Below, in pieces: positions 3,462 through 16,129 of a DNA stretch of 42,304 bases (its first letter is position 1; each line of letters begins with the position of its first letter). A program made the position numbers and the translations under genes. Location: IMG/VR virus record IMGVR_UViG_2734482773_000007. The stretch is one strand, 5' to 3'. This DNA is from a virus (lineage: Duplodnaviria; Heunggongvirae; Uroviricota; Caudoviricetes). The notes beneath the pieces were generated by a model. The model worked only from the letters and a program-made list of their open reading frames with translations, made no database searches and was not told the origin of the DNA.

Positions 3462-3477
3462 ATAATATGGCTCCTAA

Positions 3478-3511
3478 ACAACAAAAGGCCAATTTAGGCC
3501 TTTTGTTGTTT
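3478..3511. terminator. perfect 14-bp-arm palindrome (AACAACAAAAGGCC-N6-GGCCTTTTGTTGTT), possible bidirectional terminator
   Basis: Read directly; GGCC core stem followed by U-rich arm on both strands; sits immediately downstream of the AT-rich gene 3525..4442 and upstream of the helicase RBS. Confidence 0.45.
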
Positions 3512-12094: not shown

Positions 12095-12151
12095 GCTGTT
12101 GCGAGTGCGCTTTCAGACATAAAAAAGCCCGTCACGTGAGGCGGGCAAAGA

Positions 12152-12373
12152 CTACACACAGCAATTACATGGATGATTCAGTTGGTATTGTTGCGTACGT
12201 GGTACCACAAGGTTGAAGCGGACACGCCAGTGCGTTGCAATGGTATGCAGGAAAGCACCACATCCAGGGCAGTGCTCATAACATTCGTTGATTTGGTATC
12301 GTTTTGGCTTTGGTGTCAGAAGCTGTGTTTGGCAAGCAGGGCATTCACCTTTGAGCGGTTTATACGTTTTCAC
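12152..12373 (-). CDS. small zinc-ribbon protein
   Basis: 73 aa with CPAC ... CPGC pairs; first gene leftward of the repressor, i.e. the N/early-regulator position. Confidence 0.4.
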   Translation of the reverse strand: MKTYKPLKGECPACQTQLLTPKPKRYQINECYEHCPGCGAFLHTIATHWRVRFNLVVPRTQQYQLNHPCNCCV

Positions 12374-12656
12374 GCCGTTTCCTCATTCAGTTCACTTTGG
12401 TGGTTCGGCGGCTTCGACTTGTATCAGTAGACAGTACTTCGCCGCACCCCAAAGGGAACTTACTGACCCGTATTGCCGACATCCTGTCCCGCCACGGTCC
12501 CGACGCATGGTTTAGAGTCGCGCCGTTCGACTTGTGGCTAAAGATACAATTTGAGTTGTATTGTGTAAACCACAAATGTGGTATTTTGTGGGGTGTGAAT
12601 ACTACTTTATTGATATTTAAGTGAATTTAATTTGTAAGACTTTACAAATGGGGTAA

Positions 12657-12676
12657 GGGAGGCTGTTACGCCTCCC
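12657..12676 (-). terminator. stem-loop directly after repressor gene stop (GGGAGGC-N6-GCCTCCC)
   Basis: Perfect 7-bp GC-rich stem 20 nt past the cI-like stop; followed on the minus strand by a moderately U-rich stretch. Confidence 0.45.
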
Positions 12677-12695
12677 GATATTTACGGTGGGAATA

Positions 12696-13319
12696 CTAAC
12701 GTTTACGGCGGTAAATACGGTGTTCGATCATTACACCTATGATCTGTAAGTTCATATCTGCACTACGAAAAATAGGGTAATCAGGATTTAGGGGGATTAA
12801 TTCAAAGTCGTCGATGCCGATTCCTAATGGACGGTATTTTTTAAATGTAGCTTCGTGACCGTCGTTTTTGGCGACAACAAACTCCCCTGGTGCAGGACAT
12901 AGATCAGGATCGATGATAACAATGTCTCCTTCTTTAAACTCTGGTTGCATGCTGTCGCCATCGATACGTAATGCGAAGCATGTTTCTGGAATGTCAGAGT
13001 CTGCCAAAATATATTCAAATTCCCCTGTCAGATCTGTTATGTCTCTTGCTTCTGTAAGCTCTCCTGCCTGAACGTAACTTAATATAGGTATGCGTCTGGT
13101 ACTTATCTCCGCGAGAGGCATAATATTTTTACCGTTCAGTAGCCAGTCTGGGCTACATTTCAAGGCCTTAGCCAGATCCAGAAGATTGCGTGGCTTTCTG
13201 GTTCGTCCACTTTCGATGGATTCTATGGATTGTTGGCTAACCCCTGCAGAATTCGCTACTTCCACTTGAGTCATTCCTAATTCCAAACGACGTGCTTTAA
13301 AACGGGCTGCGAGAGACAT
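12696..13319 (-). CDS. CI-like prophage repressor (HTH_XRE + S24/LexA-type peptidase domain)
   Basis: N-terminal HTH (LGMTQVEVANSAGVSQQSIESIESG), C-terminal autocleavage-type domain (DGDSM ... K motif region); start chosen at internal Met (MSLAARF); divergent from a Cro-like gene. Confidence 0.85.
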   Translation of the reverse strand: MSLAARFKARRLELGMTQVEVANSAGVSQQSIESIESGRTRKPRNLLDLAKALKCSPDWLLNGKNIMPLAEISTRRIPILSYVQAGELTEARDITDLTGEFEYILADSDIPETCFALRIDGDSMQPEFKEGDIVIIDPDLCPAPGEFVVAKNDGHEATFKKYRPLGIGIDDFELIPLNPDYPIFRSADMNLQIIGVMIEHRIYRRKR

Positions 13320-13382
13320 GGGATTAGTCCTTCTGGGTTGTATTAATGTGTATCCCCACATTAAAAACAATTTTTGTTGTAT

Positions 13383-13412
13383 TTGACAAACCTTGTTTGT
13401 TGTTGCTAAATA
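13383..13412 (+). promoter_or_regulatory. PR-like promoter for cro-like gene (TTGACA ... TAAATA) within operator region
   Basis: Perfect -35 TTGACA at 13383-13388, -10-like TAAATA about 18 nt downstream, then GAGGTG RBS and ATG at 13440; palindrome TTAATGTG-N6-CACATTAA lies just upstream (putative operator). Confidence 0.45.
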
Positions 13413-13439
13413 CCACTAAAATTGTATGAGGTGAAAGCA

Positions 13440-13652
13440 ATGACCTTAGCGACCCGAGTAAAAGAACGACGTAAAGAACTCAAAATGACGCAAGTTACGT
13501 TGGCTGAGCTCACAGGAGTGAGCCAGCAGGCAATAAACAGAATTGAAAGTGGTGTTATTGCTCGGCCACGTTATCTTCTTGAAATGTCTATAGCATTGGA
13601 TTGCGACCCTAATTGGCTGTTGTATGGCTCACAAAACGATAAAAAGGCTTAA
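13440..13652 (+). CDS. Cro-like HTH_XRE regulator
   Basis: 70 aa from internal Met; HTH LKMTQVTLAELTGVSQQAINRIESG; divergent from the repressor. Confidence 0.75.
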   Translation: MTLATRVKERRKELKMTQVTLAELTGVSQQAINRIESGVIARPRYLLEMSIALDCDPNWLLYGSQNDKKA

Positions 13653-13655
13653 CCC

Positions 13656-15848
13656 ATGTCCGATAGCAAACCATGGGGAGCTACGCCTGATGAGTGGTTT
13701 CATTTCGACCTGGTATTGGGGAGAACTGATCATCTTCTCCCAGTTGTATGTAACCCCAGTGCGACCATATCCCCTGATAGTAAACTGAAAGCGTTGGGTA
13801 AGACGCCGAGTCGCTATAACCGGGACCGCCAGGTCACCGGTATTGCTCAATGGACCGGGCATGTTGTTACTGAGCATGATTTTGCCCGCTGGTCGAATGA
13901 ACCGGATTATGGCATCTGCGTGCGTACAGGCCATGGCTGGCTGGCGCTGGACTGTGATAGCGAAGATGAAGACATTCAGGCAGATATTCGCAAAACGCTT
14001 GTGCAACTTCTGGGTGAGTTGCCGCCGCGACGCTGGCGAGCAAACAGTAATAAGTGTCTGTATCTGCTGGCCGTTGATGGTGATTTCCGTAAGCGTATCC
14101 ATCGCCTGGCGGGGGATATGGGCATTATCGAGTTGCTGGCGAACGGGCAGCAGTTCGTTGCCTGCGGTACGCACAGCAGCGGCGCGCGTATTGAATGGGA
14201 CGGCGGTTTGCCGGATGAACCTCCGGCTATTACTGGTGAGCAGCTTGAAACGCTGTGGCAGCGCCTGGCTGAACAACTCCCTGTGTCGGTAACCACCGAA
14301 GCGGGCAACACGAAGATGCGCGACCGATCAGCATTCACGCCCGGCGCGACGGATGATACAGCTGAATATCTTGATGCCAATGGCTGGACGCTGCTGGATG
14401 GCGCAAATGGTGAACGATATATCCGCTGTCCGTTTGAAGACGGCCACAGTAGCGGGGGCGATCCAACAAGCACAGTTTATTTTCCTGCGGGAACCGCGGG
14501 CTTTGAGCAGGGGCATTTTAAATGCCTGCATGCCAGTTGTGCGCATCGTGATGACGGAGATTTCCTTAATGCCATTGGGATCCGCAACGACGATTTCGAA
14601 GATCTGACCAGCACCGAAGTGGCGGAACCTTTACCGCTGCCTGCTTTCGAGCGTGATAAATGGGGGCGTATCGAGGCAACAATCAGCAACGCAGCCAAAG
14701 CAGTAGTACGCCCTGATTTTGTGGACATCGATATTCGCTTTGACCAGTTCCGCGACGAAATCATGTTTGCCCCTGCAGGATCCGGACAATGGCGGGCATT
14801 CACCGATGCGGATTATGCGCGCCTGCGCATCACGATGGAAAAGCGGGGATTTAAACCTGTTGGTCGTGAACTTATTCGCGATGTGGTGTTACTTGCAGCC
14901 GATGAACAACCATTCGATTCAGCGATCACCTGGCTGAACGGACTGGAGTGGGATGGCGTGTCGCGCATCGAATGTTTCTACCATACGCACTTCGGTACCG
15001 CCGACACGCCTTATACCCGTGCGGTGTCTATGTACATGTGGACCGCGTTGGCGGGGCGAGTACTGGAGCCAGGCATCAAAGCGGATATGGTGCCGATCCT
15101 CGTTGGTCCGCAGGGCTGCGGTAAGTCTTCCGGAGTGGAGGCACTGAGCCCTGATCCTGCGTTTTTTACTGAAATCTCTTTTGCCGAAAAAGACGATGAT
15201 CTCGCTCGAAAAATGCGTGGTCGGCTGGTGGCAGAGATTGGTGAACTGCGCGGACTTAATACCAAAGAGCTGGAGTCAATCAAAGCGTTTGTGACGCGTA
15301 CTCACGAAAACTGGATCCCGAAATACCGGGAGTTCGCCACCCAGTTTCCTCGTCGCCTGGTGTTCGTTGGTACCACCAATGAGGACGAATTCCTTGCGGA
15401 CAAGACTGGTAACCGTCGCTGGCTCCCCGTGGAAGTGTCGAAAGTCGACGTGAAAGCGATAAAAAGAGATCTCCTTTTACTTTGGGCTGAGGCTCGTGAG
15501 GTGTTTCAGCGTCTGGGGGGTATCCAGTTCCGTGAGGCTGAACAACTGGCAGCGAGTGTCCATGAACAGTACACCATCAAGGATGCTTGGCTTGAAACGG
15601 TAGAGAAATGGCTCGACACGCCAGACCTGATGACTAATGAACTTCCGCGAAATTGCGAATTTTTACGCGCAAGTGATGTTTTGCGTGATGCGATTGGGCT
15701 AAATCCTGACCGCATCGGAAAACGCGAAGAAATGCGAATTAGTAATGTTTTGCAAAATTGCGGGTATAAGCGTGCCCAAAGGCGAATTGGGGGGAAAATG
15801 ACTCGAATTTTTGAGGCGGTGTCCCAACCTGTACCAACCTCAAAATAG
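13656..15848 (+). CDS. DNA primase: N-terminal PrimPol-like domain plus C-terminal VirE/P4-type NTPase
   Basis: 730 aa; Walker A GPQGCGKSS and Walker B-like LVAEIGE in the C-terminal half; N-terminal region resembles bifunctional primase-polymerase; followed by iterons. Confidence 0.75.
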   Translation: MSDSKPWGATPDEWFHFDLVLGRTDHLLPVVCNPSATISPDSKLKALGKTPSRYNRDRQVTGIAQWTGHVVTEHDFARWSNEPDYGICVRTGHGWLALDCDSEDEDIQADIRKTLVQLLGELPPRRWRANSNKCLYLLAVDGDFRKRIHRLAGDMGIIELLANGQQFVACGTHSSGARIEWDGGLPDEPPAITGEQLETLWQRLAEQLPVSVTTEAGNTKMRDRSAFTPGATDDTAEYLDANGWTLLDGANGERYIRCPFEDGHSSGGDPTSTVYFPAGTAGFEQGHFKCLHASCAHRDDGDFLNAIGIRNDDFEDLTSTEVAEPLPLPAFERDKWGRIEATISNAAKAVVRPDFVDIDIRFDQFRDEIMFAPAGSGQWRAFTDADYARLRITMEKRGFKPVGRELIRDVVLLAADEQPFDSAITWLNGLEWDGVSRIECFYHTHFGTADTPYTRAVSMYMWTALAGRVLEPGIKADMVPILVGPQGCGKSSGVEALSPDPAFFTEISFAEKDDDLARKMRGRLVAEIGELRGLNTKELESIKAFVTRTHENWIPKYREFATQFPRRLVFVGTTNEDEFLADKTGNRRWLPVEVSKVDVKAIKRDLLLLWAEAREVFQRLGGIQFREAEQLAASVHEQYTIKDAWLETVEKWLDTPDLMTNELPRNCEFLRASDVLRDAIGLNPDRIGKREEMRISNVLQNCGYKRAQRRIGGKMTRIFEAVSQPVPTSK

Positions 15849-16003
15849 AGGTTGGTACATTTTAACTAATTGAATTTAAAGGCCTGTACCAACTGTACCA
15901 TCTGTACCAACCTAATTACTAAGAACCCCATATATATATATAAGTCGCTTGGGGAAAAGGTTTGAAAAGAGCTGGTACAGGTGGGTACAGGTTGGTACAG
16001 GCC
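15828..16003. repeat. iteron cluster with AT-rich spacer (candidate replication origin)
   Basis: At least eight copies of the 9-10 bp motif GGTTGGTACAG / CTGTACCAAC in both orientations (15828-15839, 15850-15859, 15884-15912 three tandem, 15971-16000 three tandem) flanking ATATATATATATA at 15930-15943. Confidence 0.6.
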
Positions 16004-16129
16004 GAACAAGGAATTTTTTGCACATAACAGCGTGTAATAAGCGAATCGGAACTGCGTTATCCACACCCACGGATAAACAAACGTGGTTCTCAGAAAATTT
16101 TTTCGTAGCAAAACGTAGAGGTCAGAGCT

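What the first reader, a model, noticed from the sequence alone, without database searches (positions are those of the whole stretch)
12374..13439. Immunity region with palindromic operators and a long non-coding leader left of the repressor
Between the divergent repressor and cro-like genes there is a perfect -35 TTGACA and a palindrome TTAATGTG-N6-CACATTAA (operator candidate). Left of the repressor, 322 bp without a convincing ORF contain further palindromes (CCACAAATGTGG) and two similar GTTCGACTTGT-type repeats; this could hold PL/OL and possibly a small RNA.
Basis: seen in the sequence. Interest (0 to 1): 0.35.

Follow-up and report, generated by a model that had tools for sequence, protein, structure and literature searches.

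The report
Prophage put-type antiterminator RNA leader
The "non-coding leader" left of this E. coli prophage's repressor gene is an unannotated relative of the phage HK022 put RNA, a transcript that binds RNA polymerase and lets it ignore terminators; it is a new member of a known but rarely catalogued RNA class.

Summary
The interpretation needs revising.

**Main result.** The 322-bp gap left of the repressor holds a leftward early promoter, PL. Directly downstream of it lies a 68-nt put-type processive antiterminator RNA at 12465-12532 on the minus strand.
- It is about 83% identical to HK022 putL.
- It scores 90 bits against a put covariance model.
- It keeps every nucleotide shown to be critical in the HK022 cryo-EM and mutagenesis work.
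- Its differences from HK022 are mostly compensatory base-pair changes.
- One of the two "GTTCGACTTGT" repeats is the 5' strand of put helix A. The other sits in the variable loop of a conserved leader hairpin.

**Downstream layout.** Beyond put come a conserved Shine-Dalgarno (SD) sequence, a 73-aa zinc-ribbon ORF and a strong intrinsic terminator, followed by the roughly 10-kb replication operon. No second put (putR) exists in the window.

**Operators.** They are an 18-bp motif, ATACMA-N6-TKGTAT, present three times at PL and three times between the repressor and cro genes.

**Verdict.** This is a new member of a known kind. It belongs to a subtype with a shorter stem II, found only on the left operon, in phages with VapE primase and PolA-type replication genes. 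It is annotated in no matching RefSeq record listed and has no match in Rfam 15. Function is inferred, not shown.

The parts
12465..12532 (-). put-type (putL-like) antiterminator RNA core, equivalent to A3-C72 of HK022 putL: helix A, helix B, G35 junction, stem II. The covariance-model hit spans 12462-12535.
   Evidence: blastn to HK022, HK75, O276 and HK639 putL. Alignments. Model R1 gives 90.3 bits, E 9.7e-20. Covariation on the cryo-EM structure.
12541..12569 (-). PL promoter: -35 TTTACA (12569-12564), 17-nt spacer, -10 TATCTT (12546-12541). Predicted transcription start about 12535-12533, 1-3 nt upstream of the first paired put base (12532).
   Evidence: Consensus scans. It aligns hexamer for hexamer with the annotated HK022 pL -35 and -10.
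12544..12561 (.). OL1, candidate operator ATACAATTTGAGTTGTAT (12 of 12 to ATACMA-N6-TKGTAT). It covers the PL spacer and the start of the -10.
   Evidence: families D1, D2, I3; its two best matches in the whole window lie in the repressor-cro spacer. Conserved in L012 and L029.
12567..12584 (.). OL2, candidate operator AAACCACAAATGTGGTAT (11 of 12).
12599..12616 (.). OL3, weaker candidate operator ATACTACTTTATTGATAT (10 of 12). In relatives the left half is ATACCA.
12389..12460 (-). Conserved long leader hairpin with an imperfect stem of 19 pairs: AAGUUCCCUUUGGGGUGCGGCG ... CGCCGAACCACCAAAGUGAACU. Its variable loop holds the second TTCGACTTGT copy (12413-12422).
   Evidence: minimum-free-energy fold. 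(conserved in front of different first genes). (RNAalifold predicts 21 pairs in all, 3 of them with compensatory changes).
12152..12387 (-). Conserved Shine-Dalgarno sequence (AAUGAGGAA, 12387-12379) and GTG start (12373) of a 73-aa CxxC...CxxC zinc-ribbon ORF (12373-12152). This is the first gene of the PL operon and is not annotated in RefSeq. Residues after about 60 are not conserved.
   Evidence: 1-nt indel in CB9615. One search gives only sub-threshold zinc-ribbon Pfam matches.
12119..12165 (-). First intrinsic terminator of the left operon: GCCCGCCUCACGUGACGGGC (12146-12127) followed by U6 (12126-12121). The 47 nt resemble the processed 3' form of the host sRNA RprA, with 40 of 47 identical by my own count and the first 23 identical.
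   Evidence: Sequence. Rfam RF00034 at 51.5 bits, below the gathering score of 70. Alignment to K-12 rprA. The processed form is described in PMC9262595.
12657..12676 (-). GC-rich hairpin GGGAGGC-N6-GCCUCCC just after the repressor stop codon. It is a likely terminator or insulator between the repressor transcript and PL.
   Evidence: The stem is kept with different sequence in L012 and L029.
12696..13319 (-). CI-type repressor, 207 aa, with HTH_3 and Peptidase_S24 domains.
13343..13364 (.). It overlaps the -10 and start region of the putative leftward repressor promoter. It is specific to this sub-lineage.
   Evidence: Absent in L012 and L029. An equally long palindrome arises in about 5% of shuffles.
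13365..13382 (.). OR3, candidate operator AAACAATTTTTGTTGTAT (11 of 12; ATACAA... in relatives). It lies in the spacer of the putative leftward repressor promoter, TTGTCA-N18-TTTAAT on the minus strand.
13383..13388 (+). Perfect -35 TTGACA of the putative PR promoter. The -10 is either CTAAAT (13406-13411) or TAAATA (13407-13412).
   Evidence: Sequence. Conserved in relatives. It does not pass the strict promoter scan.
13388..13405 (.). OR2, weak candidate operator AAACCTTGTTTGTTGTTG, in the PR spacer.
   Evidence: third copy of family D1. Centre-to-centre spacing to its neighbours is 23 and 22 bp.
13410..13427 (.). OR1, candidate operator ATACCACTAAAATTGTAT (12 of 12; 16 of 18 identical to the reverse complement of OL1). 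It covers the PR -10 and start region.
   Evidence: (I3).
13440..13652 (+). Cro-like HTH_3 protein, 70 aa, 57% identical to the first 63 residues of the repressor.

Best explanation
The finding covers the immunity region of an E. coli prophage inserted next to yfhL. The prophage has a CI/Cro-type switch and a Q antiterminator, but its replication module is VapE primase plus DUF2800/DUF2815/PolA.

The 322-bp gap left of the repressor is the control region and 5' leader of the leftward early operon. It is read on the minus strand, in this order:
1. A hairpin that ends the repressor transcript.
2. Three 18-bp operators and the PL promoter.
3. A put-type RNA, starting 1-3 nt after the predicted transcription start.
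4. A conserved long hairpin.
5. A ribosome-binding site and a small zinc-ribbon gene.
6. A strong intrinsic terminator.
7. The roughly 10-kb replication and recombination operon.

Proposed mechanism, taken from HK022. When the repressor is inactivated, RNA polymerase starts at PL and transcribes put. The nascent RNA folds into helix A, helix B and stem II. It docks on the zinc-binding domain of the polymerase beta' subunit at the RNA exit channel and stays bound. The polymerase becomes resistant to pausing and termination, so it reads through the terminator at 12146-12121 and any later ones. No phage protein is needed.

Repressor dimers, and probably the paralogous Cro-like protein, bind the ATACMA-N6-TKGTAT sites at PL and between the two regulator genes.

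What is shown: sequence and structural homology, conservation, position, the repeated motif and the terminator. What is inferred: the promoter start point, actual antitermination, and which protein binds which site.
For: **Homology to put.**
- Window 12461-12545 matches HK022, HK75 and O276 putL, annotated 'antiterminator RNA', and HK639 'putL-like antiterminator RNA' (annotations).
- The alignment extends into the promoter. The -35 TTTACA is identical to HK022 pL, and the spacer is 17 nt in both.
- A covariance model built from 32 distinct put sequences scores 90.3 bits.

**Structure.**
- The published cryo-EM structure (PMC9378689) was mapped onto that alignment. 94.9% of cells are paired and 11 pairs show compensatory changes. 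No shuffle out of 500 reaches this, and sliding the partners drops pairing to 26-50%.
- Against HK022, the window has A5:U17 changed to U:A, G38:C70 to C:G, and C41:G66 to U:A.
- Upper stem II loses exactly one base pair through a deletion on each strand.
- A9, G35, U28, A64, G12:U32, G42:U65 and the -10-like AACCAT are unchanged.

**Modularity.**
- The same put core sits behind at least five unrelated promoter-operator sets and in front of at least four different first genes.
- In E. coli genomes some matches end at 12537, the promoter/put junction.

**Slot equivalence.** A sister prophage, NCTC9022, has the same PL as three put-bearing loci and the same downstream terminator. It carries an rrn/lambda-type boxA (CGCTCTTTAACAA) instead of put.

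**A terminator to overcome** lies 320 nt downstream.

**Operators.**
- The two best matches to OL1 in the whole 42-kb window, 16 of 18 and 15 of 18, both lie in the 120-bp repressor-cro spacer.
- The repeats are found independently by the repeat finder.
- They are conserved in relatives with 92-93% identical repressors.
Against: - There is no experimental evidence for this element: no transcription start, no readthrough assay, no footprint.
- There is no putR in the window; the next best model hit scores 10 bits. The HK022 two-site layout is therefore not reproduced.
- The stem II bulge is G rather than U68. Deleting U68 in HK022 abolishes antitermination (PMC9378689).
- Upper stem II is one pair shorter than in any studied put.
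- The HK639 annotation extends about 60 nt past stem II, so extra downstream sequence may be needed and has not been assessed here.
- The predicted -10 hexamers are weak: TATCTT for PL and CTAAAT or TAAATA for PR.
- The operator consensus was derived from the same sites it describes. Only OL3, OR2 and the conservation in relatives are independent support.
Confidence: 0.88

Rival explanations
1. The gap holds PL/OL and a separate trans-acting small RNA. The palindromes TTAATGTG-N6-CACATTAA and CCACAAATGTGG are the operators, and the GTTCGACTTGT repeats are binding or regulatory repeats.
For: All of these sequences exist. The region is transcribed-looking and non-coding. The palindrome has the same 6-N6-6 core geometry as the other sites and overlaps the likely repressor-gene promoter.
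Against: There is no terminator directly after the conserved RNA, which continues into an SD sequence and an ORF. The conserved block is homologous to a known cis-acting RNA. The palindrome is absent from L012 and L029 although their repressor is 92-93% identical, and it has no counterpart at PL. The second repeat copy is partly deleted in L055 and L110. Both items arise in about 5% of shuffles.
Confidence: 0.05
2. The put-like sequence is an inactive relic, for example a leftover of recombination with an HK022-like phage. The left operon is expressed by simple terminator leakage or by another factor.
For: No putR is present. Stem II is shortened and the U68 position is altered. A sister prophage does without put.
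Against: The core is identical or nearly identical across loci whose flanks, immunity regions and first genes differ. The changes that do occur are compensatory. All experimentally critical bases are kept. The subtype is found from E. coli to Erwinia, Enterobacter, Izhakiella and Gilliamella. The put-less relative has a boxA in the same slot, which argues that the slot needs an antiterminator.
Confidence: 0.05
3. Antitermination here is protein-dependent, of the lambda N/nut or rrn boxA type. The small zinc-ribbon protein would act as the N-like factor and the put-like RNA as its binding site.
For: A small zinc-ribbon ORF occupies the position where lambda has N and HK022 has Nun. A relative uses boxA.
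Against: No boxA-like sequence lies near PL or PR; the best matches have 2 mismatches and are elsewhere or on the wrong strand. The first gene after put is interchangeable among relatives while put stays constant. HK022 put acts without any phage protein (PMC9378689).
Confidence: 0.03
4. The gap encodes an unrecognised small protein, and the conservation reflects coding.
For: ORFs of 62-75 aa with TTG starts overlap it on both strands.
Against: The conserved block ends exactly at the RNA boundaries, and the flanks are replaced wholesale in relatives. Substitutions are paired across helices rather than placed at third codon positions. No SD sequence or ATG is present. No feature is annotated under any of the 25 listed genome matches.
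Confidence: 0.02

Closest known systems
HK022 putL (also in HK75 and O276): polymerase-utilisation antiterminator RNA
   Same: Position directly after PL, left of a CI-type repressor. The promoter has the same -35 and the same spacing. The fold is the same: helix A 3-7:15-19, helix B 10-14:30-34, G35 junction, stem II. About 83% identity. All nucleotides critical in mutagenesis and cryo-EM are kept, and so is the -10-like AACCAT pause element.
   Different: Upper stem II is one base pair shorter. The bulge is G in place of U68. There are three compensatory pair swaps. There is no partner putR on the right operon. A conserved long hairpin and a different first gene, a zinc-ribbon ORF instead of nun, follow it. 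The host phage has a VapE/PolA-type rather than a lambda O/P-type replication module.
HK639 putL-like antiterminator RNA
   Same: A single left-operon put with no putR detected in the locus by the same model (annotation).
   Different: HK639 has a leader of about 70 nt between its promoter and put. Here put starts at the transcription start, as in HK022. The lower stem II sequence and the bulge position differ. HK639 is a lambdoid phage with a Rec module.
Lambda N/nutL and rrn boxA antitermination
   Same: The same logic and the same slot. A signal in the early leader makes polymerase terminator-resistant for a long operon. A sister prophage carries a boxA in this slot.
   Different: No boxA or boxB is present here. 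No N-like protein is required in the put paradigm. The RNA acts through the beta' zinc-binding domain rather than through Nus factors.
Lambda-type tripartite operators (OL1-3 and OR1-3) with CI and Cro
   Same: Divergent repressor and cro-like genes. Three spaced palindromic sites sit at each of two promoters, with centre-to-centre spacing of 22-23 bp at the right and 23 bp between OL1 and OL2. The repressor is HTH plus an S24 self-cleaving domain.
   Different: Sites are 18 bp (6-N6-6, ATACMA/TKGTAT) rather than 17 bp. The putative PR and repressor-gene promoters have overlapping -35 hexamers. The Cro-like protein is a close paralogue of the repressor's DNA-binding domain (57% identity).

Membership tests
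put (polymerase-utilisation) antiterminator RNA, HK022 type | Sequence homology to characterised put RNAs | tested here: met
   blastn E about 1e-9 to HK022, HK75 and O276 putL and E 8e-6 to HK639 putL-like. Covariance model 90.3 bits, E 9.7e-20.
put (polymerase-utilisation) antiterminator RNA, HK022 type | Two-domain fold (stem I = helix A + helix B, stem II) supported by covariation | tested here: met
   94.9% of cells paired, 11 pairs with compensatory changes, 0 of 500 shuffles as good. The window itself carries three compensatory swaps and a paired 1-bp deletion.
put (polymerase-utilisation) antiterminator RNA, HK022 type | Nucleotides essential in HK022 (A9, G35, A64, U28; G12:U32, G42:U65, G43:A64, C44:A63) | tested here: met
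   All are identical in the window, numbered as in PMC9378689. The U68 bulge is G here.
put (polymerase-utilisation) antiterminator RNA, HK022 type | Located in the early transcript downstream of a repressor-controlled early promoter and upstream of terminators | tested here: met
   A PL-like promoter aligns with the annotated HK022 pL. An intrinsic terminator lies at 12146-12121. The transcription start itself is only predicted.
put (polymerase-utilisation) antiterminator RNA, HK022 type | Acts in cis, without phage proteins, through the beta' zinc-binding domain to suppress termination and pausing | not testable with these tools
   This needs readthrough reporters, rpoC mutants or in vitro transcription.
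put (polymerase-utilisation) antiterminator RNA, HK022 type | Second copy (putR) downstream of PR, as in HK022 | tested here: not met
   No second hit in the window above 10 bits. The same model finds putR at 45-54 bits in about 45 HK022-like loci. HK639 and all short-stem-II loci also lack it, so this feature describes HK022 and does not define the RNA family.
Lambda-type CI/Cro immunity region | Divergent HTH+S24 repressor and small HTH Cro-like genes | tested here: met
   Pfam HTH_3 plus Peptidase_S24 for the repressor and HTH_3 for the cro-like protein. PHROG 4 'transcriptional repressor'.
Lambda-type CI/Cro immunity region | A repeated operator motif shared between the PL and PR/PRM regions | tested here: met
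   ATACMA-N6-TKGTAT occurs three times at each region. The best window-wide matches to OL1 are in the repressor-cro spacer. The sites are conserved in relatives. Binding has not been tested.
Lambda N / nut (boxA-boxB) antitermination | A boxA (CGCTCTTA / GCTCTTTAACAA) in the early leaders | tested here: not met
   No match with 2 or fewer mismatches in 12374-13700 on the transcribed strands.
Any Rfam 15 family | A score at or above the gathering threshold | tested here: not met
   No hit in the window at gathering thresholds. Nothing overlaps 12374-12700 even at E up to 10. No Rfam 15 model matches this put element at either threshold.
Trans-acting Hfq-type small RNA | A discrete transcript with its own promoter and intrinsic terminator | tested here: not met
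   The conserved RNA runs into a conserved SD sequence and an ORF with no terminator between them.

The most novel reading that the evidence does not exclude
The early-left leader may be a three-part RNA cassette: put, a long dsRNA-like hairpin, and a terminator that copies the processed 47-nt form of the host sRNA RprA. Besides antitermination, transcripts that stop or are cleaved at 12165-12119 would release a phage-made RprA-3' mimic. That mimic would compete with, or act like, host RprA during induction. The roughly 19-bp leader hairpin would be an RNase III site that tunes translation of the first gene, as in the lambda N leader.
Probability: 0.1. Interest if true: 0.65.

Novelty: new member of a known kind. 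Interest (0 to 1): 0.42.

Why it matters
put RNAs are among the few RNAs known to reprogram RNA polymerase without any protein. Only HK022, and to a lesser degree HK639, have been studied. No Rfam 15 family matched this element, and no RefSeq record listed here annotates it.

This element shows that the put module also serves temperate phages with a very different replication system, and that it occurs as a natural variant with a shorter stem II and an altered bulge. It is interchangeable with a boxA leader at the same slot. It occurs in prophages of pathogenic E. coli (O55:H7, ETEC, STEC) and, by exact pattern match, in Erwinia, Enterobacter, Izhakiella and Gilliamella.

The alignment and model made here could seed a family entry and improve prophage annotation. 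The natural variants are ready-made tests of the cryo-EM model.

Tried and rejected
- **Rfam.** Nothing was found in the gap at gathering thresholds or at E up to 10. The only nearby sub-threshold hit is RprA, outside the finding.
- **tRNA and tmRNA.** None.
- **A second put on the right operon.** None, even with filters off. The HK639 'M3-like RNA' has no counterpart in the window; there are only 9-13-nt chance matches.
- **The 'terminator' at 15830-15859.** It turned out to be inverted iterons of a probable origin. It is therefore not evidence of a need for rightward antitermination.
- **boxA/nut.** Absent.
- **Plain minimum-free-energy folding of the 163-nt leader.** It is not significantly more stable than shuffles (z = -1.1), so thermodynamics alone would not have flagged the element. 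It does reproduce helix B, stem II and the leader hairpin.
- **The 73-aa ORF.** Only sub-threshold zinc-ribbon matches were found. Its last 13 codons are not conserved.
- **King et al. 2011 (PMC3187212).** This paper describes HK639 and prophage put-like RNAs, but it is not held. I could not check whether this prophage family was already listed there.
- **First genome-contig scan.** It used a wrong spacer length and found nothing. The corrected pattern found 7 loci.
Full report
**Context**

The window is an E. coli prophage inserted beside yfhL/shoB. It is nearly identical to one in O55:H7 CB9615.

The gene order is as follows:
- integrase;
- a long leftward operon (SNF2 helicase, VRR-NUC, PolA-type DNA polymerase, DUF2815, DUF2800, a 300-aa and a 49-aa protein);
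- the region under study;
- a rightward operon (cro-like gene, VapE primase, Q antiterminator, lysis and morphogenesis genes).

The repressor is 12696-13319 (-) and carries HTH_3 and Peptidase_S24 domains. The cro-like gene is 13440-13652 (+). The Cro-like protein is 57% identical to the first 63 residues of the repressor.

**Checking the observation**

- TTGACA at 13383-13388;
- TTAATGTG-N6-CACATTAA at 13343-13364;
- CCACAAATGTGG at 12570-12581;
- an exact 10-nt repeat, TTCGACTTGT, at 12413-12422 and 12526-12535;
- a 322-bp gap (12374-12695) with no convincing ORF and no annotated feature under any of the 25 listed genome matches.

In first-order Markov shuffles, an 8-nt-arm palindrome arises in about 5% of repressor-cro spacers. 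A 10-nt exact repeat arises in about 6% of 322-bp gaps. Taken alone, these two items are only marginally unusual.

**What the gap contains**

A sensitive blastn search of 12100-12720 against phage records matched window 12461-12545 to HK022, HK75 and O276. In those records the matched stretch is annotated 'putL: antiterminator RNA'. It also matched the HK639 'putL-like antiterminator RNA', as well as phiEt88 and several P22-like Salmonella phages (annotations).

In all of these, the element lies on the strand transcribed leftward, just left of the CI-type repressor. Aligned on the minus strand, the window matches HK022 from the pL -35 hexamer onwards:
- the -35 is TTTACA in both;
- the spacer is 17 nt in both;
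- the -10 is TATCTT here and CATCAT in HK022;
- the match then continues through the whole put RNA.

The promoter scan found the same hexamers independently, at 12569-12541 on the minus strand. The predicted start, about 12535-12533, lies 1-3 nt before the first paired base of put (12532). HK022 has the same arrangement.

**Structure**

I numbered the HK022 RNA as in the cryo-EM paper (PMC9378689). The structure has these parts:
- helix A, A3-G7 paired with C15-U19;
- helix B, C10-G14 paired with C30-G34;
- the A9-G35 platform that contacts the beta' zinc-binding domain;
- stem II, G36-C72, with non-canonical pairs G42:U65, G43:A64 and C44:A63 and the U68 bulge;
- a -10-like AACCAT at +23 to +28.

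The window element (12532-12465) differs from HK022 at 12 positions:
- A5:U17 becomes U:A.
- G38:C70 becomes C:G.
- C41:G66 becomes U:A.
- The two U:A pairs of upper stem II are replaced by a single A:U, through one deletion on each strand.
- U20 becomes C. This position is 'inert' in mutagenesis.
- U68 becomes G.

All other positions are unchanged, including every residue reported as critical.

I aligned 32 distinct put sequences, mainly from that scan, and added HK022 putR. On that alignment:
- the cryo-EM structure is 94.9% paired;
- 11 of 22 pairs show changes on both sides;
- no shuffle out of 500 reaches these values;
- sliding the partners by 1-3 columns drops pairing to 26-50%.

A covariance model built from this alignment scores the window element at 90.3 bits, E about 1e-19. 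Nothing else in the 42-kb window exceeds 10 bits.

The same model detects HK022-type putR at 45-54 bits in about 45 loci. It finds none in any locus of the window's subtype, and none in HK639. This phage therefore has a left-operon put only.

**Subtype and distribution**

The window belongs to a subtype with the shorter upper stem II (GGGACAGGAUGUCGG). There are 33 loci of this subtype.
- Most that have enough flanking DNA carry homologues of the window's VapE primase, DUF2800 protein and 300-aa protein, down to 41-58% identity.
- In species-representative genomes, the exact subtype pattern occurs in Erwinia, Enterobacter soli, Izhakiella and Gilliamella.
- In complete E. coli genomes, the whole 322-bp gap is present in 65 of 5426.

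**Modularity**

The put core is identical or nearly so behind at least five unrelated promoter-operator sets. It precedes at least four different first genes. Some E. coli matches end at 12537, which is the promoter/put junction.

A sister prophage in NCTC9022 is informative. It has the same PL sequence as the put-bearing loci L011, L073 and L101, and the same downstream terminator and genes. It has no put. In put's place it carries CGCTCTTTAACAA, an rrn/lambda-type boxA by my recollection of the consensus.

Two different antitermination signals at one slot is good circumstantial evidence that the slot's job is antitermination. The window itself has no boxA near either early promoter.

**Downstream of put**

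A conserved imperfect stem of 19 pairs spans 12460-12389; RNAalifold predicts 21 pairs in all across the aligned leader, three of them with compensatory changes. It is also present in the minimum-free-energy fold. It encloses a variable loop and ends 1 nt before a conserved ribosome-binding sequence, AAUGAGGAA.

The second TTCGACTTGT copy lies in that loop. It is partly deleted in L055 and L110. I therefore see no evidence that its resemblance to the put 5' strand is functional.

The long duplex resembles an RNase III site such as the one in the lambda N leader. That is analogy only.

The first gene is a 73-aa CxxC...CxxC ORF (12373-12152) that RefSeq does not annotate. Its start is tied to the conserved SD sequence, but residues beyond about 60 are not conserved.

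It is followed by GCCCGCCUCACGUGACGGGC-UUUUUU (12146-12121), a textbook intrinsic terminator. The simple scan missed it because of its loop length. This is the first obstacle a put-modified polymerase would have to pass to reach the replication genes.

**Operators**

The 18-mer ATACAATTTGAGTTGTAT (OL1, 12544-12561) lies in the PL spacer and -10. Its two best matches anywhere in the window, on either strand, are both in the 120-bp repressor-cro spacer:
- ATACCACTAAAATTGTAT, 13410-13427, 16 of 18;
- AAACAATTTTTGTTGTAT, 13365-13382, 15 of 18.

The next best match elsewhere is 13 of 18. The repeat finder recovered these relations on its own (D1, D2, I3).

With the consensus ATACMA-N6-TKGTAT, further sites are:
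- OL3 (12599-12616);
- a weak OR2 (13388-13405).

All are conserved in relatives whose repressor is 92-93% identical, sometimes with better half-sites.

It overlaps the -10 and start region of a plausible leftward repressor promoter, TTGTCA-N18-TTTAAT on the minus strand. That promoter is paralogous in layout to PL (D2). The palindrome may be a lineage-specific extra site or an RNA hairpin in the repressor leader. I cannot tell which.

A GC-rich hairpin after the repressor stop codon (12657-12676) keeps its stem with different sequence in relatives. It probably insulates PL and put from repressor-gene transcription.

**Mechanism and confidence**

By homology and anatomy, the element works like HK022 putL. 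The nascent RNA binds the beta' zinc-binding domain at the RNA exit channel, holds the polymerase in the non-swivelled state, and suppresses pausing and termination over many kilobases (PMC9378689).

- Shown here: homology, fold, conserved critical bases, promoter-proximal position, a downstream terminator, modular conservation and slot equivalence with boxA.
- Inferred: transcription start, actual readthrough, dependence on the host zinc-binding domain, and the identity of the proteins bound at the 18-mers.

I put membership in the put family at about 0.9 or better, and the full functional statement at about 0.88.

**Novelty**

The class is known, and put-like elements in prophages were reported in 2011. 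That paper is not held here. The element is therefore a new, unannotated member, of a subtype with a shorter stem II and a G bulge, in a left-only arrangement, in a non-lambda-type replication background. No Rfam 15 family matched it.

**Seen in passing**

- The 47 nt at 12165-12119 (-) match the processed 3' form of host RprA. By my own count 40 of 47 are identical, and the first 23 are identical (the processed form is described in PMC9262595).
- The same module ends an unrelated gene on large plasmids and is kept in put-less relatives. It may therefore simply be a mobile terminator. An RprA-mimic role is not excluded.
- The VapE-Q spacer (about 15830-16010) has direct TGTACCAAC iterons, an (AT)n tract and inverted GGTACAGG repeats. 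It looks like the replication origin.

Noticed in passing
window 12119-12165 (-); wider Rfam hit 12117-12227 (-): The intrinsic terminator after the 73-aa ORF copies the processed 47-nt 3' form of the host sRNA RprA. By my own count 40 of 47 nt are identical to K-12 rprA, and the first 23 are identical. Rfam RF00034 scores 51.5 bits, below the gathering score of 70. The same module is kept in put-less sister prophages and also ends an unrelated gene on large plasmids. It could be a mobile terminator or a phage-borne RprA mimic.
   Followed up: partly
L129 (E. coli NCTC9022 prophage), about 3471-3487 (-): A sister prophage has the same PL/operator sequence as put-bearing loci and the same downstream terminator. 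It has no put and carries an rrn/lambda-type boxA (CGCTCTTTAACAA) in that slot. This is a natural swap of antitermination modules. Three GGTAAGC-containing repeats follow the boxA.
   Followed up: partly
window 15830-16010: The spacer between the VapE primase gene and the Q gene has four direct TGTACCA(A/T)C iterons, an (AT)n run and three inverted GGTACAGG repeats. It is probably the replication origin. The '12-bp-stem terminator' reported by the scan there is a pair of inverted iterons.
   Followed up: no
window 13440-13652 (+) versus 12696-13319 (-): The Cro-like protein is 57% identical to the N-terminal 63 residues of the repressor. The two regulators are recent paralogues and probably read the same 18-bp operators.
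   Followed up: partly
window 12152-12373 (-): An unannotated 73-aa CxxC...CxxC zinc-ribbon ORF sits at the position of lambda N or HK022 nun. Its start is coupled to a conserved SD sequence, but the last 13 codons are not conserved (1-nt indel in CB9615). Other relatives have unrelated first genes at this site.
   Followed up: partly
window 12631-12648 and 12657-12676: Between the repressor stop codon and OL3 there are two features. One is a GC-rich hairpin whose stem co-varies in relatives, a likely terminator of the repressor transcript. The other is a perfect 6-N6-6 palindrome, TTTGTAAGACTTTACAAA, of unknown role that is conserved in relatives.
   Followed up: no
window 13362-13390 (-) versus 12541-12569 (-): A 26-nt direct repeat (77% identity) links PL to a putative leftward repressor promoter whose -35 overlaps the PR -35 (TTGACA/TTGTCA). 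The two leftward promoter-operator cassettes look like duplicates.
   Followed up: partly
The short-stem-II subtype reaches Gilliamella (bee-gut Orbaceae), Erwinia, Izhakiella and Enterobacter. No Rfam 15 family matched the window element.
   Followed up: partly
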